DNA of 64,000 nucleotides from Candidatus Pacebacteria bacterium UBA6180. GTDB lineage: Bacteria; Patescibacteriota; Microgenomatia; UBA1400; PJMF01. Shown piece by piece: positions 23,767 to 64,000 of the stretch. The position numbers and the translations under genes were made by a program. The stretch is taken from positions 25,384 to 89,383 of the forward strand of contig DITQ01000006.1 in the NCBI GenBank assembly GCA_002422165.1. Direction: 5' to 3'. The notes under the pieces were generated by a model. That model was not told the origin of the DNA and did no database searches. It worked only from the letters and a program-made list of their open reading frames with translations. Numbering within the stretch: the first letter of the stretch is position 1; each line of letters begins with the position of its first letter.

Positions 23767-25026
23767 TTATTTTCTTTTTCTCGCTAACTTTTGGTGAGCT
23801 GCTGCCAGAGAGTGACTGCTAAGCGCTGCCAAGCCAGAGATTTCTGCTGCCAGGACTCCGGTAGCCAAAATTGCTGCCAGTTTACTCGGGTTTGGATCAT
23901 CGTCATTTTGTAAAATTAAACTGCGCACTTCTTTTTGAGCAGGCAAAGCCGTCCCTCCGCCCACACTGCCCAGAGGCAAATCGGATAAATGCACTGCGAA
24001 ATATAAGCCGGTACTGCCATCTGCCATTAAAGCTTCTTCGACGATGGTGTTACCTTGACTAGCTTCGACGATGTGAGCGCTGTCCTGGCCAGTAGCCAGA
24101 TAAAAAGCAGCTGTCACGTTAGCAAATTGCATGTTGTGATCACTCGAACCAGCTAGCGTCGAGCCTAGTTGATTTTTACTGTGGTGAGTGGCAAGCAGTT
24201 TTTTGGAGCTGGTTTTGAGAACTTCCTCCAAAATTTCTTCGCTAAGCAAGACTTCCGCCTGAGCGCTGTAGCCGCGACCAAGTATTTGATTGATGTGAGA
24301 AGCTTTTTTGTCTGTGCAGACGTTGCTACTGAGACTCAGCATCTGGATGCCTGGGTAGGTGTTCAAAAAATCCTCCCACAACTTCTGCAAAGCGATGGTG
24401 ACCATGTTCATCCCCATCGCCAAATCGGTGTCAAAACTTAAACGAACAAACACTTGTCGCCCACGCACGAAGCTCTGTAAAGCTAGAAATTTGAGATGAG
24501 AACTTCCATCTTCAGTGACTTGACGAATTTTTGTCCTTGTTTCAGCCAGATCTAGGAATTCTGCAAAGGCAAAGGCCTGCTTGCCATCAGCAAAAGCAAA
24601 GCTGGGCGCGCGAGTCATGCCGGCATTTTTGACGAAAAGTTGCGCCCCACCAGCTTGATTAATAGCCTTGAGACCGCGACTAACACTAGCCACGAGTGCT
24701 CCCTCGCTGGTAGCGAGCGGCACGAAAGAATTCTCTCTCTGGCCGTATTGCTCGAATTCCACAGGCCCAGCTAAGCCGAGCGGCAAACTGATGGCCCCAA
24801 CCATGTTTTCACAGTTGTGCGCATTGGCCGCTGCTAAATCAGCATCGACCGCAAAAAGATGCGGAGTTGGTGCAGCTTTCCAGCTTGAAGCCAATTGTTT
24901 TTGGCGATCCCTGATCAGCTGCAGATCATCTGCGTTAGTATTGTTGTTTTTGAAAAACGACATTGCATGATAATTAGTCGCAAAAAGGAACAAAATCATG
25001 CAAAAGAAAGTTTTAGGCTCTTTCAA
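23767..25026 (-). CDS. HMG-CoA reductase, class I
   Basis: DLAMGMNMVT (class I DAMGMNM motif), SLSSNVCTDKKAS, GSVGGGT. The N-terminal 40 aa are hydrophobic, so the true start may be a later Met. Confidence 0.85.
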   Translation of the reverse strand: MKEPKTFFCMILFLFATNYHAMSFFKNNNTNADDLQLIRDRQKQLASSWKAAPTPHLFAVDADLAAANAHNCENMVGAISLPLGLAGPVEFEQYGQRENSFVPLATSEGALVASVSRGLKAINQAGGAQLFVKNAGMTRAPSFAFADGKQAFAFAEFLDLAETRTKIRQVTEDGSSHLKFLALQSFVRGRQVFVRLSFDTDLAMGMNMVTIALQKLWEDFLNTYPGIQMLSLSSNVCTDKKASHINQILGRGYSAQAEVLLSEEILEEVLKTSSKKLLATHHSKNQLGSTLAGSSDHNMQFANVTAAFYLATGQDSAHIVEASQGNTIVEEALMADGSTGLYFAVHLSDLPLGSVGGGTALPAQKEVRSLILQNDDDPNPSKLAAILATGVLAAEISGLAALSSHSLAAAHQKLARKRK

Positions 25027-31789: not shown

Positions 31790-31928
31790 GGTGTTGTTAT
31801 TCTAGCAGCTAATTAACTTCTTGGGGAAGTTTGCTAAAAATTTGCTTTACAATTATAAAGTGCTATTATGAATATTGAATGAATTTATCAATTACATTTT
31901 GCCAATTTTCTCATCTTTGAGATTTTCA

Positions 31929-31952
31929 GTCCCGCTTCAGGCGGGATTTTTT
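31929..31952 (+). terminator. stem-loop plus T-tract in the 5' leader of the downstream secreted-protein gene (intrinsic terminator/attenuator-like)
   Basis: gtcccgc-ttcag-gcgggat followed by tttttt. No CDS lies upstream on this strand. Confidence 0.4.
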
Positions 31953-31985
31953 ATAAGCAAAACACAAAAAAAAGGAGTTGAAAGA

Positions 31986-33227
31986 ATGAAAAAGATAATA
32001 AATTTACTATTTAGTGCCATTGCACTTTTGGTATTTGCAACACCTGCGTTTGCAGAGTTCAATTCGGTTACTCCTAGTACCAATGACATCAATAAAACAA
32101 AAGGGTGGGCTCATGTAAATCAAGTCAGCCAAGGGGTTGGAACTACCGATCTTAAGTTTGTCAACACAAGAGCTTTTTTTAGCTGCTTTGAATACAGGGT
32201 CGACAACGAATCAAATACTGTTGATGGGGCAAATCCAAACACATTAGTAACTGATGGGCGATGGACTCAGGTTTGTCTTAATAATTCCGCACAAACTAAA
32301 ACCATACCAGCAAATGAATATGTTGACGTGCGCATGGTTTATGGAGCCGAATCAGATGAACGTTTTGACTGGACGAGGTTTGATGTATTACCTGCTCCGT
32401 TTGTAAGAAGTGCAGAAATAACCTCTCCCACAATAAACCAAGTCGTCCAAGGACTCGTCAATTTCAATGCAACTCTTAATGACAAAGATGGAGACGATTC
32501 CGTTCAGTGGGCTGTTCGCAAAGGAACTTGTGCTGCCGGAACTAACACGGTACTTGGCAATGTTGACGGCTTCAATAGCCCATCCACCTGGGATCATTTC
32601 AGTTTCCATGCATCGGCCGACACTTCATCCTGGGTTCCTGGAGGTTATTGCTTTATCTTTAACCCTTCAGAAAGTGCAGGCGACACTGCAATTAGAGAAA
32701 CAAGAGAATTCGTGGTAGCTGATACTAAAGCTCCATTGGTAACGATTAACACTCCCAGCGAAGGTGAAACCTTATCAGGTGTTGTCCATATATTTGGAAC
32801 AATTGTTGAAGATCTAGCGATGGGTAATTACAATATTGCTATTTATCCTGGAGGTGCTGATTTTATGGATTTTAGTAAAAGGATAGAGCAATCAAATGTA
32901 AATCCCGCCACTATATTTAACAACCAAAAAATATTCGAGTGGGACACAGCCTCGGGTTTATATCCTGATGGTGAATATTTGATTAGATTTGCAGCTAGAG
33001 ATGCAGCTGGGAACAGAGATCTGACATTAGATCCATATCTTGGCGGCGATGATTCTCAGCATGTAATTAAAGTCATGGTAAAGAATAATCCAGATGTAGT
33101 TGCCTTGCCTACAGATAAAAATCAATGCAAAGATGGTGGCTGGAAGTCCTTTAGCAGCCTCGGTTTTAAAAACCAAGGTGCTTGTGTCAGCTACGTCCAA
33201 AGCAACGATAAAGCAGGTAAAAGATAA
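31986..33227 (+). CDS. secreted hypothetical protein (signal peptide; beta-rich, possibly Ig-like domains)
   Basis: RBS aaggag 8 nt upstream of the ATG at 31986. Signal peptide MKKIINLLFSAIALLVFATPAFA. 413 aa. Confidence 0.4.
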   Translation: MKKIINLLFSAIALLVFATPAFAEFNSVTPSTNDINKTKGWAHVNQVSQGVGTTDLKFVNTRAFFSCFEYRVDNESNTVDGANPNTLVTDGRWTQVCLNNSAQTKTIPANEYVDVRMVYGAESDERFDWTRFDVLPAPFVRSAEITSPTINQVVQGLVNFNATLNDKDGDDSVQWAVRKGTCAAGTNTVLGNVDGFNSPSTWDHFSFHASADTSSWVPGGYCFIFNPSESAGDTAIRETREFVVADTKAPLVTINTPSEGETLSGVVHIFGTIVEDLAMGNYNIAIYPGGADFMDFSKRIEQSNVNPATIFNNQKIFEWDTASGLYPDGEYLIRFAARDAAGNRDLTLDPYLGGDDSQHVIKVMVKNNPDVVALPTDKNQCKDGGWKSFSSLGFKNQGACVSYVQSNDKAGKR

Positions 33228-53154: not shown

Positions 53155-54648
53155 TTAATTTGAAATAGCCATTAAAGACATTTTCATCGCTGAAACATCT
53201 TGTTGGATATTATAGTCTAAAATAATTTCCTGCTCTATTTTTTTAACAGCATGAATAACGCTACTATGGTCTCTTCCGGAGAACCACTGACCAATTTCCT
53301 CGAGAGGGATTTGCAACTCATTGCGCAATAAAAACATAGCTACATGGCGAGCTCTAACAAGATCCTTGCTTCTTCTTTTACCGCGAACGGCGCTCTGCTT
53401 GATTCGATAATGGTTAGCTACTGTTTTGATAATGTCTTGAGGTTTGGCGCGGATAATCTTCTGTTGGTTTTGGCGCATTTCGCCCTGGAGAATTTTATCA
53501 ATCAGTGTCGAATCTAGACTTAAGCCCTGAAGTTCGACTCCAGACCTGATTTTTTTAATGATACCCTCGATTCTCCTGGCACTGTCAACTTGAGAAGCAA
53601 TTTTCTGTGCCAACTCGATAGGAATGTTTAGCTTACTTGCCTGAGCTTTGAGTAGGAAAATGGCGGTGCGCAGTTCGAAGGTGGGCTGCTGAATATCAAT
53701 CATTAGGCCGGCTTCAAAACGAGAGCGAAGACGGTCTTCTAGGAGGCTAATTTCTTGAGGGGGGCGATCAGAAGTGAGGATAATTTGAGAATTGATAGAG
53801 GTTAGAGCATTGAAGGTGTGAAAAAATTCTTCTTGAACCGAAGTTTTGCCAGCAATAAACTGAATGTCGTCGAGCAGTAGGAGTTTGGTTTTGCGGTATT
53901 TGTTTTTGAGCTGTAGGGTGTTGTGGCTTTTAATAGCCCTAACTATTTCATTTGTAAATTGTTCTCCAGAGGCATAGATTATTTCTGTTTCTGGGTTGCT
54001 GCTTAGGATGTGGTTGGCGACGGCGTGAATTAAGTGAGTCTTGCCAACCCCAACCCCACCATAGAGAAAAAGGGGGTTGTAGCTGGTGCCAGGATTGTTG
54101 GCAACGGCTGTTGCTGCTGCATGAGCCATTTCGTTGCTCGAGGACACGGCAAAACTTTTAAAGGTGTAGTCTTCACGCAAGCCAATTTGCTGAATCCTGG
54201 TTTTGAGGCGATCTACAGTATTACTATTAATGTTAGCTTTAGAAAACAACTCTTCTACAGTAGGAGAGCTGGAGGTTCCAGATTCTGGAAAGCTTTTATT
54301 GTCAGAAAGAGCTCTCTTGAGCTCGCCATAATTTTGATGATTACTGCGAATACTTCCTTGATTTAAGTCGGAGACGACAAACTCTATTTCTAAAGGCTTG
54401 TTGATGTATTTTTCAAGAGAAGTTTTAATTTGTCCATACAAATTAACCTTGAGGTTGGTGACGTGAAAGGCGGTCATGCAGTTGATGGTGGCAACAGCTT
54501 TTTGATCGTCGACAACTCTAATGGCACTAAGCGGACTAGGGGCGATCCAGGTATTAAAAAAAGCAGGGCTCAAGCTAGATTCTAAGTCAGACTTGGCCAT
54601 TTGCCAGATCTGTTTAATGGTTTCAGAGTCGTAGACTTGTTCCGACAT
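53155..54648 (-). CDS. dnaA: chromosomal replication initiator protein DnaA
   Basis: Walker A LFLYGGVGVGKTHLIHAV, sensor motifs, C-terminal DnaA-box-binding helix-turn-helix RARHVAMFLLRNEL...SGRDHSSVIHAVKKIE. Confidence 0.95.
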   Translation of the reverse strand: MSEQVYDSETIKQIWQMAKSDLESSLSPAFFNTWIAPSPLSAIRVVDDQKAVATINCMTAFHVTNLKVNLYGQIKTSLEKYINKPLEIEFVVSDLNQGSIRSNHQNYGELKRALSDNKSFPESGTSSSPTVEELFSKANINSNTVDRLKTRIQQIGLREDYTFKSFAVSSSNEMAHAAATAVANNPGTSYNPLFLYGGVGVGKTHLIHAVANHILSSNPETEIIYASGEQFTNEIVRAIKSHNTLQLKNKYRKTKLLLLDDIQFIAGKTSVQEEFFHTFNALTSINSQIILTSDRPPQEISLLEDRLRSRFEAGLMIDIQQPTFELRTAIFLLKAQASKLNIPIELAQKIASQVDSARRIEGIIKKIRSGVELQGLSLDSTLIDKILQGEMRQNQQKIIRAKPQDIIKTVANHYRIKQSAVRGKRRSKDLVRARHVAMFLLRNELQIPLEEIGQWFSGRDHSSVIHAVKKIEQEIILDYNIQQDVSAMKMSLMAISN

Positions 54649-54747: not shown

Positions 54748-56919
54748 TTACTTTGGAGGCTTATAGTCGTTAATGCTGTAAACCCCATGCTTATCTGGTG
54801 TAAGTTTTTCGTTTTCAGTCTCGTCTCCAAAAACTGTTTTTACCTTTTGAGCTAAAAAGCCATCCTTTTTAATGGCTTCTTCAGCCTTCTGATCGGCGTC
54901 TTTGAGAGGGTCTTGCTCAACCTTTATGTCGGGGGCTTTCCAGGCGAGGTTGTTTTCTGAATCAGCGTTGACACTCGCGGTATTTTTAAACTCTTGATTG
55001 TTGTCAAGTCGTTGTTTTCGAAGTTGGCGTGCTTTTTTGTAGTTTTCAAAGCTGTCGCCGCGAGGACTCGAGGCGGCGCTAAGCGATTTTTTGATTTCCT
55101 TATCGTCTTTTTTGCGCAACATTTCTTCCGGGTTGGTGGTGATAACTTGATGTTCTTCGTCTGAAGCAATCACTCTCAGTGCCACGTGGTTTTGTCCAGC
55201 AAAAAAGATGCCTTCTCCCACATCAGAAGAAACAAGCAACTGTCGCTCACCCTCGGACAAATAGAAGGTTTGGGTTAAAATGGGGATGGAAGCGGTAGAC
55301 TGCTTCATCAGGAATTGAATAGAGGCGTTGGAAACAATGGCTTTGCCGTAATCGTTATGTAAGAAATCTTCCACGTCCTGAGTGATAGTGGTAATTCCAA
55401 GATAGTATTTGCGCGACCGTTTAACCATGGAGTAGACAAAAGCAGCGCTGTCTGGATGCATCATAAAATACCAAGCCTCATCAATAATGAGAATACGGCG
55501 CCTAAGGTTCTTTTTAACTCTTGTCCAGATAAAATCAAGGATAACATACATGGCGATAGGTCGCAGCGACTCCTCCATTTCTTTGACCGAAAAAACCGTG
55601 AACGGAGACTTGATGTCTATGTTGGATGCCTGGTCAAAAATTCCACGATAAGAACCAGTGATAAATTTTTCTAAACGTGCAGCGATGTCGTCGGCATATT
55701 CTTGCTCCATACCAATGAGCGCCTTATAGAGGTCTTCCATGAGTGGGGGAGTGTTTTTTTGAGTGGCTGGGTCGGGAGTGATGCCTTTGGCTTTGTAGGC
55801 GGCAATAATGGAACGATCGAGCAAAGCCTCTTGTTGTGGGGTCATTTCGCCCAGCATGACCTTAAGCAGGCCGTGAACGGAGAGAATTTTTTGACCCAAC
55901 TCATTTTCACCCTCTTCGTAAAGGTTGGACAGATCGAAAGGGTTTATTTTCGCTTTGGAGCCAAAAGTAAAATTGATGTATTCTCCGCCAACCATTTTGC
56001 ACAGTTCCTCATACTCATGTTCTGGGTCGAGAACGATCACCTCAGCATCAAACATTAGTTGACGCAAAATTTCGAGCTTAACGGTGTAGGATTTACCAGC
56101 ACCAGACTTGGCGAATATAACCATGTTGGCGTTTTCCATTTTGAAGCGATCGAAAATAACCAGCGAATCGTTGTGTTCGTTGATCCCATAAACTATGCCT
56201 GTTTCCATGGTTAGCTCAGAAGATGTGAACGGAAAGGTGGTGGCCAAAGAAGTGGTATCCATGTTTCTGGTGACAGAAAGCTTGTCGACGCCCATGGGGA
56301 GAGTGGTTTTAAAGCCTTCGTCCATTTGTAGGGCGGATTTTTTGGAAACGATCATTAGGGCGCCGAGAGTGCTTTGAATGCTTTTAGTGATTTTGTCGAG
56401 CATTTCTTTGCTGTCGGCACGAACGGTAACATAAAGACCGAATTGGAAAAAGCGCTCTGAGCCAGCGGCCAATTGTTCGCGCATGGCTCTGGCATCACTC
56501 AGTTTGATTTCAGTATTAATGTTGCTGATTTTTCCTGAGCGAATGTCTGAAGTAATTTCTGCCTCCATCTCAGTGATTTTGCGCTTAAGGTTGTCAAGAA
56601 TATCTCCGGTGTCAGAGGGAAAAATAAACATTGAAATATTGGCTTGATGAGGGTAATTGATTAGTGGTGATAGCCAGTTGGCGGGAACGGCGCGAGGGTA
56701 GCCAGCAATAAACAGCGTTCTGGTGTAGGTGGAGTTGATTTTTTGGTAAGTGAAATCCACCTCTATTGCCTCTGGAGCAATAATGTCTTGGATGGTTACT
56801 AGGCCGCGCGAAAACTCGCTTAATTTTTCCTGAGTGTATTGATCGGCGTCAATTTTTTGTTGAGTTGCCGGATCGCTAGTGGTCTTTTTACCAAATAGAT
56901 TAAACATCTTTTGCATCAT
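54748..56919 (-). CDS. virB4: VirB4/TraE-family type IV secretion ATPase (Gram-positive-type architecture)
   Basis: N-region TRTLFIAGYPRAVPANWLSPLINYP...ISMFIFP, Walker A VIFAKSGAGKSYTVK, Walker B/DEAW motif ILIIDEAWYFM, C-terminal acidic extension. Confidence 0.8.
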   Translation of the reverse strand: MMQKMFNLFGKKTTSDPATQQKIDADQYTQEKLSEFSRGLVTIQDIIAPEAIEVDFTYQKINSTYTRTLFIAGYPRAVPANWLSPLINYPHQANISMFIFPSDTGDILDNLKRKITEMEAEITSDIRSGKISNINTEIKLSDARAMREQLAAGSERFFQFGLYVTVRADSKEMLDKITKSIQSTLGALMIVSKKSALQMDEGFKTTLPMGVDKLSVTRNMDTTSLATTFPFTSSELTMETGIVYGINEHNDSLVIFDRFKMENANMVIFAKSGAGKSYTVKLEILRQLMFDAEVIVLDPEHEYEELCKMVGGEYINFTFGSKAKINPFDLSNLYEEGENELGQKILSVHGLLKVMLGEMTPQQEALLDRSIIAAYKAKGITPDPATQKNTPPLMEDLYKALIGMEQEYADDIAARLEKFITGSYRGIFDQASNIDIKSPFTVFSVKEMEESLRPIAMYVILDFIWTRVKKNLRRRILIIDEAWYFMMHPDSAAFVYSMVKRSRKYYLGITTITQDVEDFLHNDYGKAIVSNASIQFLMKQSTASIPILTQTFYLSEGERQLLVSSDVGEGIFFAGQNHVALRVIASDEEHQVITTNPEEMLRKKDDKEIKKSLSAASSPRGDSFENYKKARQLRKQRLDNNQEFKNTASVNADSENNLAWKAPDIKVEQDPLKDADQKAEEAIKKDGFLAQKVKTVFGDETENEKLTPDKHGVYSINDYKPPK

Positions 56920-58348
56920 CCTGAATTTTTAATGGGGCCGCTTCCTCAGCAAAATTTACAGAAGGTTCTTGTGGGCTGCTGGGGGCGGCCTGACCTGCTC
57001 CAGCAGCTAAAAAAGAATTGTCTATGATTGGTGCAGTTTCAACAGTGGGAGTGTTAGGATTCACAGGAGCTTCTTGAGGAGCTGACGCAGCAGCAGCAGG
57101 TTGACTGGAAAGGGGAGTGTCTGGTTCGCTTGGGGCGCTGTCTGGTTGTAAGACTGGGCCGCCTATGAAGCTGTCCTTTTCAGCAAAAGACTGATTGGCG
57201 GGATTGGCTCCAGCGAGCAAGGTCGGATCGAGACTGAGGTTTAGATCGGGATTTGGGTCGGCTGTCACCGGCTCTGCAGGCGTGTTCTCTGCCGCGACTT
57301 CTGTCACGGGAGATTCTGCGCCTGGAAATCCTGCTGGTGGTGGAAACATCTGTGTTGGCGCCGATTCAAGCGTGGGCGACTGCGAAGACTCGGTGGCCTG
57401 AGGCTGTTCTTGAACAAACTGAACGTCTGTGAGCGTGGGCTGCTCTTGAATCGTGGGCTCGACGGGAGAACCGACGGGGCTGGTGGGGTCTTCTGCAGTG
57501 CTAAGTGTGTCGACAGGAGCGGCGGCTTGAGAAGTCTCGGAAGGAGCCATCTGACTCTGATTATCAACGAGCTGGCCTGGTTCGTCAGCAACCTGAGTCT
57601 GTCCTCCAGATGCTTGGTTTGCCGCTGCTTGATTTTGCATAATGTTGTTTAGTTGCATAAATTTTCCTCCAAAACTTGCCCGCACAAGTGGGGTAGTGTA
57701 GTTTTCGCTGCTACTAATTTCTTGTCCCTCAGCAGCCTCAGGGTTGTAATTGATATAGAAGTTTTGAATAATTTCTTGGGTAGTGAGCTGTCTGGCAAAA
57801 AGCCCAAGTCGATTAAATTGTGAGACCAGGTGGTCGCGACGAGGCTCGAGAACGTTAATGGCTTTTTCGAGCAAAATACTTTTTTCAATAAGTTCGACAT
57901 TAAAAGCTCCTTGGCCGGGTAAAACACTCGATGGAGTGATGAGCCCCATTTCGCTTGGGCTGGCAGAAGCGATGATAAAAAAGCGCTTTTGTAGGACGTT
58001 TCTTTCTTTGATCAGCCCCTCTACAAAGCTGCGGTATTTTTTAATCAGGGTTGCCCTGCGCTCTGAGCTTGCTTTGGCGATTTGTTCGTCAAGAAGCCTT
58101 AAATATTTGGTGGCGTCTTTAGTTTGTGATTGAATATTAATCTGAATGGGGTAGTTGAGAGAGTTGAGCACGCTGCCGTAGGTAAAAATAACCGCATCCT
58201 GTTCTTGTTCGGCCAGCAAGCTAAAATTCATGGTTCCTACCTGAAGAATGATGGCAGCAGAACCATCTTTAAGCAGGACCATGTCGTTGACAATGTCATA
58301 AACATCAAGAAATTCTTGAGTGGTAGAACTAATCACTTTGTCGCTCAT
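56900..58348 (-). CDS. VirB4 N-terminal (CagE/TrbE/VirB-type) domain-like protein with ~280-aa Pro/Ala/Ser/Gln-rich disordered tail
   Basis: First about 200 aa FLDVYDIVNDMVLLKDGSAAIILQVGTMNFSLL...IFTYGSVLNSLNYPIQINIQ resemble the VirB4 N-domain (compare DHIVLLEDGSIMSIARIDGVAFELEE in Agrobacterium VirB4). Overlaps the virB4 ATPase ORF by 20 nt in a different frame. Confidence 0.4.
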   Translation of the reverse strand: MSDKVISSTTQEFLDVYDIVNDMVLLKDGSAAIILQVGTMNFSLLAEQEQDAVIFTYGSVLNSLNYPIQINIQSQTKDATKYLRLLDEQIAKASSERRATLIKKYRSFVEGLIKERNVLQKRFFIIASASPSEMGLITPSSVLPGQGAFNVELIEKSILLEKAINVLEPRRDHLVSQFNRLGLFARQLTTQEIIQNFYINYNPEAAEGQEISSSENYTTPLVRASFGGKFMQLNNIMQNQAAANQASGGQTQVADEPGQLVDNQSQMAPSETSQAAAPVDTLSTAEDPTSPVGSPVEPTIQEQPTLTDVQFVQEQPQATESSQSPTLESAPTQMFPPPAGFPGAESPVTEVAAENTPAEPVTADPNPDLNLSLDPTLLAGANPANQSFAEKDSFIGGPVLQPDSAPSEPDTPLSSQPAAAASAPQEAPVNPNTPTVETAPIIDNSFLAAGAGQAAPSSPQEPSVNFAEEAAPLKIQDDAKDV

Positions 58349-58380: not shown

Positions 58381-59232
58381 TCAGAGGTTGATTACAAGGG
58401 GCTGGAGGATTTGCCCGCTTAGCTCAAGCTCGGAGGCGGGAAAGATGACTCCGTCCTTTTCCGCAACAATCTGGTAAAAACCATCCTCCAGAGGATTGCC
58501 AAGCACGAAGTTGCCATTAGCATCACTTTTGCCAACTCGCAAGCTTTGTCCACCACGGTCTTTAGCCTCAACTAGAACATTGGCAACAGCAATGCCGTTT
58601 TGATCGACGGTTGTTCCAAAAATTTGGTTTGGCAAGTGCTCCTCAGTGATAGTTTCTCGCGGAGCCTGGAGACTGCGCACCCTGGTTTTAAGATCCGGCT
58701 TGGTTGGTTTTTGAGCTTCAATCTTAATATCTGTGTCGACAACATTTACTTCGTCGAAAGTTTCCAAAAGAGCATTGATTTTCTGATTTTCCTCTAGATC
58801 AAAATCGTCAGTCGCTTCTGCGGAAGGAATGCTTTTTAAGTATTCAAAAATGCGCTGCTTTCGCGCGGGATTAAGATTGACGTTGGGGGCAAAGTAATCG
58901 CTTTGGTTGCTGGTTACCCGATAATTGAAAAAGTCAGGAATGCGACTGCTTTTTTTCCAAAAAAACTTTGTGGGCTTGTATATTTTATTGAAAAAAGTCT
59001 TAATCCAGTGGTCGAGAGGACGCTCCTCAATAGGGACGAAGGCAACCATTGCTCCAAGTCCCACGGTGAAAAAAATTAGAGGCCACTTGACGATGCCGAT
59101 GAGATTGGTTTTAAAAATTACAAAACCAAGCACCACTGCCACTGCCATTTCAGCAAACTGCTTGAGCGTCATCTGGCCAATGAGATGAAACTTGTAGTTG
59201 GTAATATCCTGTGGAATTGGGTGTTGTTTCAT
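58381..59232 (-). CDS. PrgI/VirB3-like two-TM protein with extended C-terminal beta-sandwich (carboxypeptidase-regulatory-like) domain
   Basis: N-terminus PIPQDITNYKFHLIGQMTLKQFAEMAVAVVLGFVIF...WPLIFFTVGLGAMVAFVP fits the PrgI-family pattern (P.D.T.Y.EK.FFGLT.RQ). C-terminus GTTVDQNGIAVANVLVEAKD...GNFVLG. Confidence 0.45.
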   Translation of the reverse strand: MKQHPIPQDITNYKFHLIGQMTLKQFAEMAVAVVLGFVIFKTNLIGIVKWPLIFFTVGLGAMVAFVPIEERPLDHWIKTFFNKIYKPTKFFWKKSSRIPDFFNYRVTSNQSDYFAPNVNLNPARKQRIFEYLKSIPSAEATDDFDLEENQKINALLETFDEVNVVDTDIKIEAQKPTKPDLKTRVRSLQAPRETITEEHLPNQIFGTTVDQNGIAVANVLVEAKDRGGQSLRVGKSDANGNFVLGNPLEDGFYQIVAEKDGVIFPASELELSGQILQPLVINL

Positions 59233-59321: not shown

Positions 59322-60344
59322 TTATTTTTCTTTAGAGACTGCCACGGCTGGAGTAATAAGTGAAGCCTGAATATTAAGGCCAGCAGAATTGGTTAGTTTG
59401 CCGCTAAAGCGATAAAAGGGGTAAGCAAGCTTCAGCTTGTCGTCGTACCTGTATTCAATCTCTGCTGAGTAAAGATTGGCTTCGTTAATCCAGTTTAAAT
59501 CGATTATTTCAACAATCTGGCTTTCTGCGCTTATGACGGAAACAATGCCATTTTTAATATTGTTTATTGCTTGATTGATGTTGAGCGGGGGAAGTTTTAA
59601 AGAAGGCTCAAATTTGTGAAAAAAGTTTTTAAAAACCACTCTTTCCAAGTCATATTTATTGTTTATTTTGCAAATAAACGGGTACTCTGATTCGTTGGTA
59701 TAGAAAACTGGAAATCCATCTAATTCATAAGTAAGAGGTATTTGTAAAATGTGAGCTTCGTTTTCAACAGTAATTTCTTGTTCTTCCTCGTTGTTTAGAA
59801 ATTCTATAGATTTCTCCTGAGGAATTAACGCCAGACCTGCGCTGTATTTTGTGTAAAAATTTAAACATGTTTGTATGGCCTCTGGCTTGAGAATGAATAG
59901 GTCGTTTTTTTCAAGATCTGACACTTCGACATAGGTGTAGTTGTTTTCGTAAGTGCTTTTGGCCAGCTGAGCGTTGTTTCCAAGCCAATAATTGAGAACG
60001 CTTTGATGAGGAATCATGTCTTTTTCATTAATGATTTGATTGGCGATTATCTCAGCAGTTGTCGATTTGTCGCTTGCAGCATAAATCTTAAAAAATTCTG
60101 GCAAAACAGGGCTTACTCCAGAAAAACTTATTTTTTTAAAAGTGCTTTGAGTTTGGTCGTAGTTGGCCGTGAAAGAATCATTTTGGAAAACAATCTTTTC
60201 CTCTTCAGGCGTAATGAGGGTTAAAATTGAAGAAATAATTAGAGCTAAGCTGGTAAAAATGAGCAGGTATTGCCAAAAGCTCAGTCTAAGCCTGAATGTT
60301 CTTTGGGTTTTGATGGTTTTTGTTTGCATATTTATTCGTAACAA
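59322..60344 (-). CDS. bitopic membrane protein in T4SS module (possible VirB8-like component)
   Basis: Single N-terminal TM WQYLLIFTSLALIISSILTLI followed by a 290-aa extracytoplasmic domain. Assignment by topology and position only. Confidence 0.3.
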   Translation of the reverse strand: MLRINMQTKTIKTQRTFRLRLSFWQYLLIFTSLALIISSILTLITPEEEKIVFQNDSFTANYDQTQSTFKKISFSGVSPVLPEFFKIYAASDKSTTAEIIANQIINEKDMIPHQSVLNYWLGNNAQLAKSTYENNYTYVEVSDLEKNDLFILKPEAIQTCLNFYTKYSAGLALIPQEKSIEFLNNEEEQEITVENEAHILQIPLTYELDGFPVFYTNESEYPFICKINNKYDLERVVFKNFFHKFEPSLKLPPLNINQAINNIKNGIVSVISAESQIVEIIDLNWINEANLYSAEIEYRYDDKLKLAYPFYRFSGKLTNSAGLNIQASLITPAVAVSKEK

Positions 60345-63300
60345 GTGGTGACACCGCTACCCTCAACGGGAGGATGTCTCCCATTATTGTCCTCTGGCAC
60401 CACGGTTTCAATAATGGATGGGCCTGGGTGGTTGAGTAGGGAAAACACTCCGCCGTGAGCCGCTCCATAATGTAGGTGGTTTCCAGAAGAAAACCCCCTG
60501 TTTCCGCTCAGGCCAATTAAATAGCCAGCTTCAACCTGAATACAGCTGCCAGGACTACTTATGCTTGGATTTGGGTCCTGAAAGTGGGCAAAGATTAGTT
60601 TCTGTTGGCCTCCATCACCATTAAAAGTCAGCGTGAAATAGCAGCCAAAACCGCTGTTAGAACAATTGACATGACAAAGCTGCCCATCATAGGGGGTAAA
60701 AACTGGGTTGCCATATAGTGCTGGTCCAAGACTTGTGCCTATATCATAGGCATCGTGGTAATAGGGGTTCTTCGGGTTTGGTCCATGGGAAAAATTGCCA
60801 TCGTATGGCAGTTGTGAGACGGTGCCTGTCATCGGCCAACAACCAGCATCCCCGCTACACTCCCCCAAACACACTCTGGCTGTAGTAATAACGTTGTCCG
60901 CGCCTTGCTGAAAAGCATTCTGGTAATAGAAATTAACTTCAATGGCATTGCTGATGGCGGTGTGGTTGTAATCGCTGCTTAAGCCATCCAGAGTATAGGT
61001 AAAGGTTAAGCTGTTGCCAGCCAAAATGACGATTTCTCCTCCGGTTGCTGCTGGAGACACTTGGGCTGATGGGAGATCACCTTCTGTTGGCAGCGGAGTG
61101 GGAGAGGCGCTAAGAGGCGGACTACTGGCTCCGCCCTGCTCATCAATAATCTTGCGAAAATATTCAAACTCTAGGTTTCTCTGACTTGGAATGATGGGCG
61201 GAGCGCGGCCTGCTTTTTCCCAGCCAGACCTGCTTTGTTTAAAAGTGGTCTCGTCACTAATGTTGATGATTTGCAAATCGAAATCTTCTTTTGGAGCGAT
61301 GGTGATCGTGTACTCAATTGACAGTGGAAAGCTTGGCTTGTCGCATTTTGACCCATCGTTTTCTGCAAGCAAGCAGCCTTTTGTGATTTTGGCGGTTTTT
61401 TTGACCTCTGCGTATTTGGAGGTTTTTTCAACCGTGTTGATAATTTCAGATTCGCTGAGGGGAAAATTGGTCAGAAAAGCTGAGTTGAGATTGGCACGAT
61501 AAAAATAACCAAGAAGGAAGATGGTTCCTGAAGCAATAACGACCGTCTGTCCCGCAATAACCATGGCAGGCGTAGCAATTTGGCTAACCAAGCTTTGAGC
61601 GGGAGGGATAGTTTGGGCTGCAGGAATGGCTGTGCTGTTGGGCGCAAATTGGTTAAAAGCTTCGTGACCGCTAAGGCTGAGGTTTTCAGCAGCACCCCCT
61701 CGACTAGAAAGTTCTTTGTTGAGGGAGGAGATTTCTCTCGCTCCGCCCAAGCCCTTGTAGATCATTGCTCCGGCAGCAAGTGCCGCCATAAGCGCTGCAA
61801 TTAGCGGTCCAAGAGTGGCCATTAGAAGAGCGAAAAGAATATAGGGCCAGTATTTTTTGATAAATTCAATGATTTGGCTGAGAACTTCATTTTCAAGAAA
61901 ACGCAGTGTGCCCGTAGCGTCAGCAGCCTTGGCCGCTTCCCAAGAAGCAAAAGCTGCTTCTGAGGCCCCGGCTGTGGCGGCGCCAGCGGTGGCGCGAATA
62001 CCCCACTTCAAGGCTTCTCTGGTAAAGCGGTTGTCAACCAAATCATCTCCACTCATTCCGCCAGGAATCTGAGTGAAAGCCTGCTGAAGCAAGCCGTCTC
62101 CCTGAGTGGCGTATGTTGGGTCGAGATAACGATTTTGACTAGGCGCAAAGGCCCTTTCGCCCAGAACTTGATTTCCCCAGATCAAAAATTCGTCAAGAGG
62201 ACTGATTTGGGGGACGATTTGTTGAGAGAAAACTTCAATGCTGTATTCAGCAGTCACGTAGCCAGGCATGTAAAACTCGAAGTAAGTTTTGAGGACAGCC
62301 TGTTGTTCTGGAGCTTCCATTTTGGCCAGTTCTGTTTCCAGCTGTTTTCCAATTAGGTCTTGTTCTTGTTTGAGAAAGCCAGCCAATTCGGGATTGTTTT
62401 TGACAGCGTCTGAGGTGGGATCGGCCAAGGCCTGTGCGACAGTTTTGCTACCAAAGTTTTTGTTTAGCTGGCGCATGTAAAGCTGTTTTGAGGTAAGAGG
62501 CTTGCCGTGCTTTGCTGCCAGATTAATTGCCTCTTCTGGCGTGAGTTTTTCTTGAGCGAATTCGGCACGAATCTCTTTGGCCCAGATGGCGCGTTTGCGC
62601 TTCCAGTAGAAGACAATGATGTTGGCCAAAGCCTCTCTGTTGTCTTTAATTTGCTTGGGAGTTAAATCAGTGCCAAAAAAGTTTTTAAGCCTTTGCCAAT
62701 CAATTTTTTGTGGGTCAGCGATTAAATATTCTGGAGGCAAGCCTTGCTGGATGTAGACGTCCGTCAAAGATTTGACGTTTTGTAGAATGCGCTCTCTAAT
62801 TTCTGGGTGTAGGTTCTGGATTGTTTCATCGAGGTGCTGGCTTAGCATCTTGTCCAGCTGCTCTTCGCTGCCGGCGACGCCCAGCTGGCTTTCGACAAGC
62901 CTGGCGAAATCAGCGTCATTTCTGCCTCGCTCGAAGACCTCCTCAGCACTCCTGGTGTCGACGACGTTGATTTGATTTTTTGTGCGCCCACCGAGCTGTT
63001 CGCCCTTGAGTTCTTGCCGCTGGTTTTTATCCAGCTCTTGCTTGAAGGCGACCGCGTCCTTGTCCTCGACCAGTTGACTGACGGCTCTATTGAGCAGTCC
63101 CATGCCGCGAATGTCGATCAGTAGGCCAAGGGCGCTTTTGTTGGCGAAGTTGACCCGCGCTGAAGTGTCCTGAACAAATCGGTCTAGACTGAATTCACCA
63201 CTTAGTATCAGAGTCTCGACTTGCGCGAAGGCGCGGTCCATGAGTTGTTGGCGGATGTCAAGCGGCAACTGATCAAAGGTCACTCGCGTGCCTGGCGACA

Positions 63301-64000
63301 AGCCCATTTGGGTTAGTGAGGCGTCGTTGAAGTAGCGACTCAAGGCCTGATTGATGGTGATGATCGAGAGCGACTGCAGGTAAAGCTTGGCTTGCGGGTC
63401 AAGCTCGGAGAGTTTGAGGGGTTGTCCGGCGGCTTGAGGTTGTTGGGGCGGCTGCTGCTGATCTGGCCGCCGCCGACTTTCGTCAGGCTGCTGCTGGGGA
63501 GGAGGGGTGTCTCCATCGCGACCAGCACTTGTGTCTTGGGCGGTTCTATCTGCTCCGAACGGAAAAGGCAAGATTCCTCCTCCTCTTCCGCCGGAAGTAG
63601 GCTGAGAGGTTTTTTCTGTTTCTTCGACCTCTGCTTCGGCAAATTCTTCTTCCAGCTCAAGAATATCAACCACCTCATCAATGCGCCTAATAATGTGCTG
63701 GCGCATGTTGAAGTCCTCCATCCGCAGAAGATCTTTTATTTCAATCTCATCTTTGCTGCTTGGGGTGACTTGAAAAATTTCAAACAAACTTTTGAGGCGA
63801 TTAAGCTGATTGATTTGTTCGAGAGTTAAGCCGAACTGGTTTGGCACTGGTCGGTAAGTTTGCTCGACAAAGTGCACAAGATCACACATGAACAAATATG
63901 GCTCAGAGTTAAAATCTGGAATTTTACCATTTTGATCTGGAACAGAGGCAGCAATGTCTGCAGAAGTGCTGAGATCAAACTCTTCAGCTGCAAAGCCAGC
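60332..64000 (-). CDS. giant T4SS-associated membrane protein with C-terminal M23 (LytM-type) peptidase domain; 5' end beyond window
   Basis: C-terminal YYHDAYDIGTSLGPALYGNPVFTPYDG (HxxxD) and GLSGNRGFSSGNHLHYG (HxH) give M23 metallopeptidase motifs. Central helices YWPYILFALLMATLGPLIAALMAALAAGAMIY and AMVIAGQTVVIASGTIFLLGYFY. P/Q-rich segment PPPQQQPDESRRRPDQQQPPQQPQ. The ORF-track start at 63895 is a TTG, and the frame stays open to position 64000. Confidence 0.6.
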   Translation of the reverse strand, partial: AGFAAEEFDLSTSADIAASVPDQNGKIPDFNSEPYLFMCDLVHFVEQTYRPVPNQFGLTLEQINQLNRLKSLFEIFQVTPSSKDEIEIKDLLRMEDFNMRQHIIRRIDEVVDILELEEEFAEAEVEETEKTSQPTSGGRGGGILPFPFGADRTAQDTSAGRDGDTPPPQQQPDESRRRPDQQQPPQQPQAAGQPLKLSELDPQAKLYLQSLSIITINQALSRYFNDASLTQMGLSPGTRVTFDQLPLDIRQQLMDRAFAQVETLILSGEFSLDRFVQDTSARVNFANKSALGLLIDIRGMGLLNRAVSQLVEDKDAVAFKQELDKNQRQELKGEQLGGRTKNQINVVDTRSAEEVFERGRNDADFARLVESQLGVAGSEEQLDKMLSQHLDETIQNLHPEIRERILQNVKSLTDVYIQQGLPPEYLIADPQKIDWQRLKNFFGTDLTPKQIKDNREALANIIVFYWKRKRAIWAKEIRAEFAQEKLTPEEAINLAAKHGKPLTSKQLYMRQLNKNFGSKTVAQALADPTSDAVKNNPELAGFLKQEQDLIGKQLETELAKMEAPEQQAVLKTYFEFYMPGYVTAEYSIEVFSQQIVPQISPLDEFLIWGNQVLGERAFAPSQNRYLDPTYATQGDGLLQQAFTQIPGGMSGDDLVDNRFTREALKWGIRATAGAATAGASEAAFASWEAAKAADATGTLRFLENEVLSQIIEFIKKYWPYILFALLMATLGPLIAALMAALAAGAMIYKGLGGAREISSLNKELSSRGGAAENLSLSGHEAFNQFAPNSTAIPAAQTIPPAQSLVSQIATPAMVIAGQTVVIASGTIFLLGYFYRANLNSAFLTNFPLSESEIINTVEKTSKYAEVKKTAKITKGCLLAENDGSKCDKPSFPLSIEYTITIAPKEDFDLQIINISDETTFKQSRSGWEKAGRAPPIIPSQRNLEFEYFRKIIDEQGGASSPPLSASPTPLPTEGDLPSAQVSPAATGGEIVILAGNSLTFTYTLDGLSSDYNHTAISNAIEVNFYYQNAFQQGADNVITTARVCLGECSGDAGCWPMTGTVSQLPYDGNFSHGPNPKNPYYHDAYDIGTSLGPALYGNPVFTPYDGQLCHVNCSNSGFGCYFTLTFNGDGGQQKLIFAHFQDPNPSISSPGSCIQVEAGYLIGLSGNRGFSSGNHLHYGAAHGGVFSLLNHPGPSIIETVVPEDNNGRHPPVEGSGVTTCYE

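What the first reader, a model, noticed from the sequence alone, without database searches (positions are those of the whole stretch)
60332..64000. Giant membrane protein (over 1200 aa) ending in an M23 peptidase: a candidate cell-wall-breaching component replacing VirB1
The C-terminal 130 aa carry both M23 (LytM/lysostaphin-type) zinc-ligand motifs (HxxxD and HxH within ...SGNHLHYG). Upstream are two clusters of hydrophobic helices and a Pro/Gln-rich low-complexity segment. The reading frame remains open to the window edge. Gram-positive T4SSs normally use lytic transglycosylase/CHAP hydrolases such as PrgK, TcpG or CwlT. An M23 endopeptidase fused to a huge membrane scaffold at the head of a T4SS operon is unusual. 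It may double as the VirB6-like channel or adhesin component.
Basis: partly seen in the sequence, partly recalled or inferred. Interest (0 to 1): 0.55.

Follow-up and report, generated by a model that had tools for sequence, protein, structure and literature searches.

The report
Giant membrane-anchored M23 peptidase of Patescibacteria T4SS
This is a real 1283-residue membrane protein ending in a cell-wall-cutting (M23) domain that always sits beside the type IV secretion genes next to dnaA in a group of ultrasmall Patescibacteria, so it is most likely that machine's wall-breaching subunit, an uncharacterised variant of a known kind rather than a new kind of system.

Summary
The minus-strand frame 60332-64000 is open to the window edge. 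An identical public contig puts the ATG 183 nt further on, giving 1283 aa.

The last ~130 aa are an M23 domain by sequence (Pfam E 2.5e-5, just under threshold; PDB 9gy1 E 2.6e-5) and by predicted fold (lysostaphin, LytM, Csd, EnpA). All catalytic residues are present.

The organism is a Pacebacteria-type Patescibacterium, not a classical Gram-positive. The gene order giant, bitopic ORF, VirB3/PrgI, TrsD, VirB4, then DnaA is conserved in 13 close genome loci. It also holds in 6 of 6 distant loci (about 20% identity) as far as their contigs reach.

All 37 distant full-length relatives tested carry M23. Three others appear to carry a CHAP-like domain instead (scores below the Pfam threshold) on the same scaffold.

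The N-terminal ~780 aa are all-helical, with no significant PDB or viral fold match. There is one strong transmembrane helix and one marginal hydrophobic segment, so a VirB6 role is not supported. A separate polytopic protein lies upstream. A tape-measure reading is rejected.

The Patescibacteria T4SS near dnaA is published, as is an essential giant peptidase in the Saccharibacteria locus. PrgK already carries a LytM domain.

Verdict: new variant of a known kind, moderate interest.

The parts
60332..64000 (-). Giant ORF, in-window part: residues 62-1283 of a 1283-aa protein plus the TAA stop at 60332-60334. The ATG lies 183 nt beyond the window edge.
63599..64000 (-). N-terminal helical region, residues 62-195 in the window (1-195 in full). 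Moderately conserved, with no signal peptide at the true N-terminus.
63419..63598 (-). Pro/Gln/Gly-rich low-complexity linker, residues 196-255. It is the least conserved block (0.28) and AF2 predicts it disordered.
61859..63418 (-). [not shown]
61748..61849 (-). TM1, residues 779-812 (WPYILFALLMATLGPLIAALMAALAAGAMIY...). Insertion energy is below 0 in all 33 relatives. AF2 models one long helix. It is preceded by a conserved KK-x-W.
61568..61747 (-). Variable Gly/Gln/Ala-rich loop, residues 813-872, predicted disordered.
61496..61567 (-). Second hydrophobic segment, residues 873-896 (AMVIAGQTVVIASGTIFLLGYFY). It is marginal (+1.8 kcal/mol here, above +3 in most relatives) but its AGQAV motif is conserved across the superfamily.
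61127..61495 (-). Conserved LNSAFLTxFP motif plus beta domain 1, residues 897-1019, with the invariant pair C937/C947. Together with TM1, the loop and segment 2 just upstream, this is the stretch (profile positions ~500-750) that distant superfamily members match most consistently.
61037..61126 (-). Pro/Ser/Thr-rich linker, residues 1020-1049, predicted disordered.
60827..61036 (-). Beta domain 2 plus the Cys motif C-L-G-x-C-S-G-x-A-G-C-W-P, residues 1050-1119. C1115 is invariant across the superfamily.
60434..60826 (-). Peptidase M23 domain, residues 1120-1250, with H1133, H1143, D1144, D1147, H1200, H1236 and H1238.
60335..60433 (-). Conserved C-terminal tail, residues 1251-1283, ending ...VTTCYE. 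C1281 is invariant across the superfamily and is inferred to form a disulfide with C1115.
59322..60329 (-). Bitopic 335-aa ORF. Its ATG lies 2 nt after the giant's stop. It has a single N-terminal TM (residues 22-40) conserved in all loci and no family match. It is a VirB8-like candidate by position and topology only.
58381..59232 (-). VirB3/PrgI-like protein, 283 aa, with a C-terminal CarboxypepD_reg-like beta domain.
56900..58348 (-). TrsD/TraC-like protein (VirB4 N-domain-like), 482 aa, with a long low-complexity C-terminal half.
54748..56919 (-). VirB4-like ATPase, CD1110 family: 392.5 bits against a cutoff of 325.
53155..54648 (-). dnaA (context). It marks the origin-proximal position typical of the Patescibacteria T4SS.
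   Evidence: PMC12102498

Best explanation
The gene encodes the membrane-anchored peptidoglycan endopeptidase subunit of the chromosomal, MPF-FATA-type T4SS of a Pacebacteria-like Patescibacterium. It is a functional analogue of VirB1, PrgK, TraG or CwlT, built differently.

Proposed mechanism:
- The ~780-aa all-helical N-terminal region stays in the cytoplasm.
- TM1 (779-812) acts as a signal anchor.
- The rest of the protein is outside the membrane: a flexible loop, a conserved marginally hydrophobic segment, two beta domains on Pro/Ser/Thr linkers, and a disulfide-stabilised M23 domain.
- The Zn-dependent M23 domain cuts peptide cross-links locally, so that the T4SS channel and VirB2-type pilus can cross the wall.
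- The cytoplasmic region docks on, or is controlled by, the VirB3/TrsD/VirB4 module encoded immediately downstream.

Shown here: the gene, its conservation, the complete catalytic residue set, the M23 fold, TM1, the Cys-rich C-terminal part, the fixed synteny, and an apparent (sub-threshold) M23-to-CHAP head swap.

Inferred: the N-in/C-out topology, the enzymatic activity and substrate, coupling to the ATPases, and whether the wall attacked is its own or the host's.
For: 1. M23 identity. Pfam E 2.5e-5. PDB 9gy1 E 2.6e-5 with motifs aligned. The family profile hits only M23 chains in the PDB. Foldseek matches lysostaphin, LytM, Csd and EnpA at probability 1.0.

2. Catalytic residues under selection. 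H1133, D1144, D1147, H1200, H1236 and H1238 are invariant in 33 relatives. They are invariant or at least 90% conserved in 37 distant relatives. All 37 of those match Pfam M23, best E 5.4e-20.

3. T4SS linkage. VirB4 scores 392.5 bits against the CD1110-family cutoff of 325. PrgI and TrsD/TraC-like proteins lie directly downstream. The next ORF starts 2 nt after the giant's stop. The same order is found in 13 genome loci and in 6 of 6 distant loci as far as their contigs reach. One of these, L016, has no VirB4 adjacent, so the linkage is to the T4SS genes rather than to the origin.

4. Apparent head swapping. P0066, P0069 and P0081 keep the scaffold but match CHAP instead of M23 (E 1e-3 to 2e-5, 20-25 bits, below the Pfam cutoff of 26). 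P0081 sits upstream of PrgI and TrsD. CHAP is the classical monoderm VirB1 module (PMC12857230).

5. Architecture. One TM has favourable insertion energy in all relatives. The C-terminal part has 10-12 Cys, against 0.33 per protein in the N-terminal 778 aa and 0.56% in sampled genes of this genome. This matches the intracellular domain / TM / extracellular hydrolase layout of monoderm VirB1 homologues (PMC12857230).

6. No other hydrolase. No SLT, lysozyme or CHAP protein was detected in the cluster. The literature notes that VirB1 is mostly missing near virB4 in Patescibacteria and that other hydrolases may substitute (PMC12102498).
Against: - No experiment exists for this family. Activity, substrate and topology are inferred.
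- This protein's Pfam M23 score is below the gathering threshold.
- In this clade the ancestral HxxxD (H1133...D1144) is split by a 6-7 residue insertion. Only 6 of 33 members have the second His (H1143), so the zinc site may be atypical.
- If the marginal second hydrophobic segment is a true TM helix, a cytoplasmic N-terminus would place M23 in the cytoplasm. That would contradict the model.
- The LytM domain of PrgK is regulatory rather than catalytic (PMC12857230), so an M23 fold alone does not prove hydrolysis.
- The N-terminal ~780 aa have no detectable relative of known function. The proposed coupling to VirB4/TrsD is pure inference.
- The giant evolves much faster than VirB4 (40-46% against 83-86% identity in the close loci; 24% against 81% in L017). 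That pattern would also fit a host-facing role.
Confidence: 0.6

Rival explanations
1. Host-directed drill. The same protein is anchored at the T4SS, but its long linkers carry the M23 domain to the peptidoglycan of the host or prey cell. It opens that wall at the epibiont-host contact so the T4SS or pilus can deliver or take up material. In the extreme version, the protein is itself exported through the T4SS, like phage ejection proteins.
For: - It is the fastest-evolving gene of the cassette (24-46% identity against 81-86% for VirB4), as expected for a host-facing protein.
- Two disordered linkers could give reach.
- M23 matches include phage ejection and tape-measure proteins: 9k2v cyanophage A4 pre-ejectosome, 9m7n Gp16 and PHROG tape-measure families.
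- The T4SS is essential for epibiotic growth in S. epibionticum and its role is unknown (PMC10633639, PMC11665869).
Against: - All phage similarities are confined to the M23 domain.
- The N-terminal model has no viral match: best E 0.69, TM 0.08.
- Nothing identifies the host or its wall chemistry.
- A membrane anchor argues against release.
Confidence: 0.2
2. Non-catalytic scaffold or regulator. The M23 domain binds peptidoglycan or regulates another hydrolase, as in EnvC, NlpD or the LytM domain of PrgK. The protein mainly serves as a structural stalk of the T4SS.
For: - The PrgK LytM domain is regulatory (PMC12857230).
- This clade has an insertion inside the ancestral HxxxD motif, and the His at position 1143 is variable.
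- The Pfam score is below threshold.
- The most conserved parts are the helical block 251-350 and the beta domains, not M23.
Against: - All other catalytic residues are invariant over 33 close and 37 distant relatives. Degenerate LytM factors usually lose them (general knowledge of the family).
- No partner hydrolase is detectable in the cluster.
- Replacement by a CHAP-like module in distant relatives suggests the head has an enzymatic job, although those CHAP scores are below the Pfam threshold.
Confidence: 0.1
3. A housekeeping cell-wall or division hydrolase controlled from the cytoplasm, analogous to FtsEX-EnvC, PcsB or RipC, that merely neighbours the T4SS genes near the origin.
For: - Its long helical region plus peptidase head resembles coiled-coil hydrolase regulators.
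- A Patescibacteria operon pairing M23 or papain-like peptidases on one membrane-anchored coiled-coil scaffold with an ABC system has been described (PMC12419801).
- The gene sits near the origin among housekeeping genes.
Against: - Linkage is to PrgI and TrsD rather than to dnaA. It persists in L016, where tRNA-synthetase and ribosomal-protein genes follow instead of dnaA.
- No FtsE/FtsX or ABC genes were seen in the cassette.
- The family is rare: 67 representatives among 1.84 billion. That fits a lineage-specific accessory component rather than a core division factor.
Confidence: 0.07
4. The protein is the VirB6-like channel subunit, or doubles as it.
For: It is large, membrane-embedded, and encoded in the T4SS cluster. 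Extended VirB6 proteins with big hydrophilic domains exist (PMC12857230).
Against: - It has only one strong TM helix plus one marginal segment, whereas VirB6 proteins have five or more.
- It has no VirB6, TrbL or PrgH hit.
- A separate polytopic protein with at least 5 hydrophobic helices is conserved upstream. That protein has a faint hit to an ICE transmembrane protein family.
Confidence: 0.03
5. A phage tape-measure or ejection protein inside a prophage.
For: PHROG tape-measure families and phage M23 proteins match the C-terminal domain.
Against: - The matches cover only residues ~1136-1246.
- The neighbours are VirB3, TrsD, VirB4, DnaA, DnaN, RnpA and YidC, not phage genes.
- The same chromosomal position recurs in 13 or more genomes.
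- The N-terminal fold has no viral match.
Confidence: 0.01

Closest known systems
Monoderm VirB1-like T4SS hydrolases: PrgK (pCF10), TraG (pIP501), CwlT (ICEBs1), Orf14 (Tn916)
   Same: All are encoded within an MPF-FATA-type T4SS cluster. All have a membrane anchor with extracellular wall-hydrolase module(s). PrgK also has an intracellular N-terminal domain and a LytM (M23-fold) module (PMC12857230).
   Different: - This protein has no glycosidase (SLT or muramidase) and no CHAP domain. Its single hydrolase head is an M23 with a full catalytic set.
- Its presumed intracellular region is about 780 aa with no known fold relative.
- It has two extra beta domains and a conserved marginally hydrophobic segment.
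- No sequence similarity was detected outside M23.
SEML1_0007 of the essential T4SS locus of Southlakia epibionticum (Saccharibacteria)
   Same: It is a giant protein (1113 aa) encoded next to virB4, trsD and prgI in a Patescibacteria T4SS locus. It has a C-terminal peptidoglycan metallopeptidase fold and is essential in Tn-seq. Its reported Foldseek neighbours include a CPR protein named 'Peptidase M23 domain-containing protein' at TM 0.61 (PMC10633639).
   Different: - Its head is a Hedgehog/DD-peptidase (M15-like) fold, not M23.
- It lies downstream, not upstream, of virB4.
- It is followed by a lysozyme/glucosaminidase/cysteine-peptidase protein that is absent here.
LytM, lysostaphin, ShyA, Csd and EnpA (peptidase family M23)
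   Same: They share the fold and catalytic residues (HxxxD, H, HxH) and are zinc endopeptidases acting on peptidoglycan cross-links.
   Different: - Here the domain is the C-terminal 10% of a 1283-aa membrane protein.
- This clade has a 6-7 residue insertion between the ancestral His and Asp.
- Extra invariant cysteines are present (C1115, C1174, C1181, C1281).
FtsEX-EnvC, PcsB and RipC systems (ATPase-controlled coiled-coil hydrolase modules)
   Same: This is a 'works like' analogy only. A long helical region is joined to an M23 or CHAP head and encoded beside an ATPase that could gate it across the membrane. M23 and papain-like heads are known to interchange on one scaffold in Patescibacteria (PMC12419801).
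   Different: The adjacent ATPases are VirB4 and a TrsD-like protein, not an ABC transporter. Here the helical region is on the opposite side of the TM from the head. No homology was detected.
Phage tape-measure and ejection proteins with M23 heads (for example cyanophage A4 pre-ejectosome 9k2v, S. aureus phage tape-measure proteins)
   Same: They are very long, largely helical proteins with hydrophobic segments and a terminal M23 that breaches a cell wall.
   Different: There is no similarity outside M23. The context here is chromosomal T4SS, not a prophage.

Membership tests
Peptidase family M23 (Pfam PF01551 / MEROPS M23) | HxxxD zinc-ligand motif | tested here: met
   H1143-D-A-Y-D1147 aligns with HNGID of PDB 9gy1. 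Caveat: across the superfamily the conserved pair is H1133...D1144, which is split here by a 6-7 residue insertion, and H1143 is present in only 6 of 33 close relatives.
Peptidase family M23 (Pfam PF01551 / MEROPS M23) | HxH motif plus the additional catalytic His | tested here: met
   H1236-L-H1238 and H1200 are invariant in 33 relatives. In 37 distant relatives, H1200 and H1236 are invariant and H1238 is at least 90% conserved.
Peptidase family M23 (Pfam PF01551 / MEROPS M23) | Score at or above the Pfam gathering threshold (28.7 bits) | tested here: not met
   This protein scores 24.8 bits, E 2.5e-5. Many relatives carry a precomputed PF01551 hit. P0089 scores 48.6 bits. All 37 distant members match at E <= 1e-3, best 5.4e-20.
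Peptidase family M23 (Pfam PF01551 / MEROPS M23) | LytM/lysostaphin-type fold | tested here: met
   The AF2 model has pLDDT 80-92 over the domain. Foldseek hits 2hsi, 4lxc, 4qpb, 2b13, 5j1l and 6smk at E 5e-6 to 1e-3, probability 1.0.
Peptidase family M23 (Pfam PF01551 / MEROPS M23) | Zn-dependent peptidoglycan endopeptidase activity | not testable with these tools
   Requires biochemistry.
Monoderm VirB1-like T4SS peptidoglycan hydrolases (PrgK/TraG/CwlT type) | [quoted passage not shown] | tested here: met
   It lies three genes upstream of virB4 on the same strand, in 13 close loci. Six distant loci keep the same order as far as their contigs reach; virB4 itself is seen in two of them and is absent after TrsD in L016.
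Monoderm VirB1-like T4SS peptidoglycan hydrolases (PrgK/TraG/CwlT type) | Membrane anchor with the hydrolase domain(s) outside the cell | tested here: inconclusive
   One strong TM is present, and the Cys-rich, disulfide-type C-terminal part suggests an outside location. The orientation is not proven, and the second hydrophobic segment is ambiguous.
Monoderm VirB1-like T4SS peptidoglycan hydrolases (PrgK/TraG/CwlT type) | Glycan-cleaving domain (SLT, muramidase or glucosaminidase) | tested here: not met
   There is no such Pfam, NCBIfam or PDB hit in the 1283 aa.
Monoderm VirB1-like T4SS peptidoglycan hydrolases (PrgK/TraG/CwlT type) | CHAP or NlpC/P60 peptidase domain | tested here: not met
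   Absent here. Three distant scaffold relatives have a CHAP-like C-terminus at 20-25 bits, below the gathering score of 26.
Monoderm VirB1-like T4SS peptidoglycan hydrolases (PrgK/TraG/CwlT type) | Required for T4SS function | not testable with these tools
   Needs genetics. An analogous giant peptidase is essential in S. epibionticum, but homology to it was not tested.
VirB6 / TrbL / PrgH channel subunits | Polytopic membrane protein with five or more TM helices and a family HMM match | tested here: not met
   It has one strong plus one marginal hydrophobic segment and no VirB6, TrbL or PrgH hit. A separate polytopic candidate lies upstream.
Phage tail tape-measure or ejection proteins | Prophage or tail-gene context and similarity outside the lytic domain | tested here: not met
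   PHROG hits cover only residues 1136-1246. The viral fold search of the N-terminal 769 aa gave best E 0.69. The neighbours are T4SS and replication genes.
Patescibacteria chromosomal T4SS (MPF-FATA-related, described in PMC12102498 and PMC10633639) | VirB4 with TrsD-like and PrgI/VirB3-like genes adjacent, close to dnaA | tested here: met
   VirB4 matches the CD1110 family at 392.5 bits against a cutoff of 325. TrsD/TraC-like and PrgI (29.1 bits against 27) are adjacent, and DnaA is directly downstream.
Patescibacteria chromosomal T4SS (MPF-FATA-related, described in PMC12102498 and PMC10633639) | VirB2-like pilin gene(s) in the locus | tested here: inconclusive
   This region is off-window here. 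In the related complete genome, locus L008 has a T4SS_pilin protein (PF18895, 39.7 bits against 26.6) about 9 kb upstream of the giant.
Patescibacteria chromosomal T4SS (MPF-FATA-related, described in PMC12102498 and PMC10633639) | No relaxase or coupling protein in the cluster | not tested
   None was seen among the cluster genes scanned, but the whole window was not searched for MOB or T4CP families.

The most novel reading that the evidence does not exclude
The giant protein is the working arm of the Patescibacteria T4SS. A novel ~780-aa cytoplasmic domain would transmit the VirB4/TrsD ATPase cycle across the membrane to a tethered M23 head, interchangeable with a CHAP-like head in other lineages. 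That head would cut the host cell's wall at the contact site. Alternatively, the protein could itself be fed through the channel like a phage ejection protein. Either way, it would be the step that lets these ultrasmall epibionts tap their hosts.
Probability: 0.15. Interest if true: 0.8.

Novelty: new variant of a known kind. Interest (0 to 1): 0.45.

Why it matters
The T4SS is essential for epibiotic growth in the one Patescibacterium where it has been tested, and reviewers call its role completely unknown (PMC10633639, PMC11665869). The published survey could not find a VirB1 equivalent near virB4 in most classes (PMC12102498).

This family supplies a concrete candidate for that missing wall-breaching function in the Pacebacteria-like lineages. 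It defines domain boundaries and catalytic residues that can be mutated. It also adds about 900 residues of conserved, structurally unmatched sequence that always travel with VirB3, TrsD and VirB4.

If the apparent M23-to-CHAP head swap is confirmed, it gives a natural experiment for deciding what the head does. Practically, current annotation reduces the protein to 'M23 family metallopeptidase' or 'hypothetical protein' and misses the T4SS link.

Tried and rejected
1. Tape-measure or prophage reading: rejected. PHROG and PDB phage hits are confined to the M23 domain, the N-terminal fold has no viral match, and the context is T4SS plus replication genes.

2. VirB6 role: rejected on TM count, the absence of an HMM hit, and the presence of a separate polytopic neighbour.

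3. Function of the N-terminal ~780 aa: nothing found.
- Pfam, NCBIfam and PHROGs gave no hit.
- PDB searches by sequence and by profile gave only M23 matches.
- BFVD gave a best E of 0.69.
- The afdb50 library was not available.

4. A second word-indexed search with the superfamily alignment A5 added only generic M23 proteins.

5. Searching the supplements of PMC12102498 for the accessions of the related genomes and for Peptidase_M23 found nothing.

6. The promoter and terminator scan across the cassette was at background: 18 against 14.2+/-3.7 and 19 against 14.4+/-3.0.

7. Neighbouring proteins stay unassigned. The bitopic ORF, the polytopic protein, the 943-aa secreted protein and the divergent 1203-aa protein gave no significant Pfam, NCBIfam or PDB match. 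The only hint was a faint 15.7-bit hit of the polytopic protein to an ICE membrane protein family.

8. The FtsEX-type operon with M23 or papain-like heads in PMC12419801 was considered as the same system. It was judged different because no ABC or VanZ genes are present here.

Full report
**1. What is in the sequence**

On the minus strand, 60332-64000 translates into 1222 codons without a stop and ends in TAA at 60332-60334. A public contig (L001, Logan SRR5323109) is identical to the window over 15,620 nt. It extends the frame by 61 codons to an ATG, giving a 1283-aa protein.

A search of 5.8 billion protein clusters returned 33 further hits at 31-59% identity, nearly all full-length (1223-1319 aa), so the ORF is a real, conserved gene. 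NCBI records name close relatives 'M23 family metallopeptidase [Patescibacteria group bacterium]' and 'hypothetical protein ... [Candidatus Pacebacteria bacterium]'.

**2. Anatomy (full-protein numbering)**

| Residues | Feature |
|---|---|
| 1-195 | Helical, moderately conserved, no signal peptide |
| 196-255 | Pro/Gln/Gly-rich low complexity, least conserved block |
| 256-775 | All-alpha core, AF2 pLDDT mostly 70-90, holds the most conserved block of the family (251-350) |
| 779-812 | Long, very hydrophobic helix (TM1) |
| 813-872 | Variable Gly/Gln-rich loop |
| 873-896 | Second, weaker hydrophobic segment |
| 897-1019 | Conserved LNSAFLTxFP motif and a beta domain |
| 1020-1049 | Pro/Ser/Thr-rich linker |
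| 1050-1119 | Second beta domain and a CxxxCxxxxxC motif |
| 1120-1250 | M23 domain |
| 1251-1283 | Conserved tail ending in VTTCYE |

- With a simple Hessa-scale sum, TM1 has favourable insertion energy in all 33 relatives. Segment 2 is +1.8 kcal/mol here and above +3 in most relatives.
- The region after segment 2 holds 10-12 cysteines, several of them invariant. The first 778 residues average 0.33 per protein. Fifteen other genes of this window average 0.56% Cys.
- C937/C947 and C1115/C1281 stay conserved even in relatives at about 20% identity.

**3. The M23 domain is real and looks catalytic**

- Pfam PF01551 scores 24.8 bits (E 2.5e-5), just under the gathering score of 28.7.
- phmmer against the PDB finds the M23 peptidase 9gy1 (E 2.6e-5) with HDAYD, AHF and HLH aligned to its HNGID, GHV and HLH.
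- The family profile hits only M23 chains in the PDB.
- The AF2 model of residues 770-1283 has pLDDT 80-92 over the domain. Foldseek matches 2hsi, lysostaphin, LytM, Csd1/2 and EnpA at probability 1.0.
- H1133, D1144, D1147, H1200, H1236 and H1238 are invariant in the 33 close relatives.

One oddity: in distant relatives the canonical motif reads S-H-x-x-x-D-A-x-D-I, so the ancestral HxxxD is H1133...D1144. In this clade, 6-7 residues are inserted between them. Which His binds zinc here is therefore open. The domain is not the degenerate type that has lost its ligands.

**4. Context**

Downstream on the same strand:
- A 335-aa ORF whose ATG is 2 nt after the giant's stop. It has one N-terminal TM helix conserved in every locus. 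One gene caller truncated it to 260 aa.
- A PrgI/VirB3-like protein.
- A TrsD/TraC-like protein.
- A VirB4 ATPase of the CD1110 family, 392.5 bits against a cutoff of 325.
- Then DnaA, DnaN, RnpA and YidC.

Upstream, off-window:
- A divergently transcribed 1203-aa protein of unknown function.
- A polytopic membrane protein of about 556-582 aa.
- In the related complete genome, also a VirB2-type pilin (PF18895, 39.7 bits) and a 943-aa protein with a hydrophobic N-terminal segment.

This is the chromosomal, origin-proximal, MPF-FATA-related T4SS of Patescibacteria described in 2023-2025 (PMC10633639, PMC12102498, PMC12857230).

**5. The linkage is old**

In 13 species-representative genome loci the order polytopic protein, giant, bitopic ORF, PrgI, TrsD, VirB4, DnaA, DnaN is identical wherever the contig reaches.

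Identity to the window's proteins differs sharply between genes in these loci:

| Protein | Identity across loci |
|---|---|
| VirB4 | 83-86% |
| DnaA | 78-81% |
| PrgI | 63-68% |
| Giant | 40-46% |

A profile of residues 252-1020, which excludes M23, was searched against 1.84 billion representatives. It found only 67 proteins, mostly 1100-1600 aa. Six distant members were looked up. All six have giant followed by a small ORF (N-terminal TM checked in L016 and L017), and then PrgI, TraC-like and VirB4 as far as the contig runs. One of them continues into DnaA. In L017 the giant is 24% identical while VirB4 is 81%.

**6. Head swapping**

All 37 distant full-length members tested carry Pfam M23 and nothing else. 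Three further members (P0066, P0069, P0081) align over the scaffold but end in a CHAP-like domain instead (E 1e-3 to 2e-5, 20-25 bits, below the Pfam cutoff of 26). P0081 sits in the same cassette. Two more have neither head.

Replacing one wall-peptidase module with another on a constant scaffold would argue that the head's job is to cut peptidoglycan, but the CHAP assignment rests on sub-threshold scores. CHAP is the usual module of monoderm VirB1 analogues (PMC12857230).

**7. What the rest is not**

- The N-terminal 769 residues have no Pfam, NCBIfam or PHROG match.
- They have no PDB relative by sequence or profile.
- There is no viral structure match (best E 0.69).
- PHROG tape-measure hits cover only residues 1136-1246.

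**8. Most likely mechanism**

Taken together, the protein has the layout that reviews give for monoderm VirB1 analogues: an intracellular domain, a membrane anchor, and extracellular hydrolase module(s) (PMC12857230). It differs in having a much larger cytoplasmic part of unknown fold and a single, catalytically complete M23 head.

I infer an N-in/C-out topology. The head would locally cleave cross-links so that the channel and pilus can cross the wall. The cytoplasmic part would be positioned or controlled by the VirB3/TrsD/VirB4 module. Confidence is about 0.6.

Open points:
- Whether segment 2 spans the membrane.
- Which His ligates zinc.
- Whether the substrate is the cell's own wall or the host's. 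The gene's fast evolution and long linkers keep the host-directed version alive, at about 0.2.

**9. Comparison with the literature**

- The system itself is known.
- The 2025 survey found VirB1 homologues poorly associated with virB4 outside Paceibacteria and suggested that other hydrolases may substitute. It notes that some VirB1 homologues carry Peptidase_M23 (PMC12102498).
- In S. epibionticum the essential locus contains SEML1_0007. This is a 1113-aa protein with a C-terminal Hedgehog/DD-peptidase fold, and its Foldseek neighbours include a CPR 'Peptidase M23 domain-containing protein' at TM 0.61. I could not test whether that is this family.
- No held paper describes this family, its N-terminal scaffold or the M23/CHAP exchange.

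I therefore rate it a new variant of a known kind, with interest 0.45.

Noticed in passing
window 60743-60787 (residues 1133-1147): The ancestral M23 HxxxD (H1133...D1144 in distant relatives, read as SHxxxDAxDI) is interrupted in this clade by a 6-7 residue insertion. Only 6 of 33 close relatives, including this protein, have a second His (H1143) that recreates HxxxD with D1147. The zinc ligand set is therefore ambiguous.
   Followed up: partly
window 59322-60344: The gene after the giant is mis-called in one public annotation (260 aa). The conserved form is 335 aa, starts at the ATG at 60329 (2 nt after the giant's stop), and has an N-terminal TM helix in every locus. It is a VirB8-like candidate by topology only, with no family or PDB match.
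   Followed up: partly
window 58381-59232: The VirB3/PrgI-like protein carries a C-terminal CarboxypepD_reg-like beta-sandwich (residues 203-261, 29.1 bits against a cutoff of 32.3). The same pairing recurs in distant locus L021. I know of no VirB3 protein with such a domain.
   Followed up: no
window 56900-58348: In the TrsD-like protein only the first ~235 aa are conserved (80-87% identity across loci). The remaining ~250 aa are Pro/Gln/Ser/Ala/Glu-rich low complexity of variable length. On the coordinates used here, the ORF overlaps the VirB4 ORF by about 20 nt.
   Followed up: no
L001 1319-4930 (minus strand; off-window, just beyond position 64000): A divergently transcribed 1203-aa protein with no family match sits upstream of the giant. 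Relatives are detected in about half the close loci (23-29% identity, partial coverage). A large opposite-strand gene (or a pair, e.g. 831 + 350 aa in L008) sits at the same position in four of the six distant loci. It may be another unrecognised component of the locus.
   Followed up: partly
L008 75-833 and 811-3642 (related complete genome CP011212.1): A VirB2-type pilin (PF18895) with an unusual ~170-aa Cys-rich N-terminal extension is followed by a 943-aa protein with a hydrophobic N-terminal segment and no detectable family. Both lie about 6-9 kb upstream of the giant.
   Followed up: partly
L001 5030-5052 (off-window): A perfect TATAAT lies about 8 nt upstream of the giant's ATG, with no obvious Shine-Dalgarno sequence. 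This suggests a leaderless or very short-leader transcript. The generic promoter scan did not flag it.
   Followed up: no
window 16000-24000 and 30000-32000 versus 4000-14000: G+C content varies strongly, from 32-37% at 4-14 kb to 48-51% at 16-24 kb. The GC-rich stretches carry HMG-CoA reductase (23767-25026), a thiolase (21595-22710) and an ATP-dependent DNA ligase (29936-31789). These are archaeal- or eukaryote-flavoured genes and possibly horizontally acquired blocks.
   Followed up: no
L004, L008, L010, L011, L013-L015 (record titles): Public taxonomy labels of close relatives look wrong. Several MAGs are titled 'uncultured Pseudomonadales bacterium'. CP011212.1 is titled 'candidate division TM6', although the identical protein is also deposited under Candidatus Pacebacteria, and DnaA is 78-81% identical across all of them.
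   Followed up: partly
window 46150-49101: A 983-aa DUF4012 protein lies a few genes downstream of the dnaA-yidC block. A 982-aa DUF4012 protein is also present in distant locus L016. It is a conserved large protein of unknown function.
   Followed up: no
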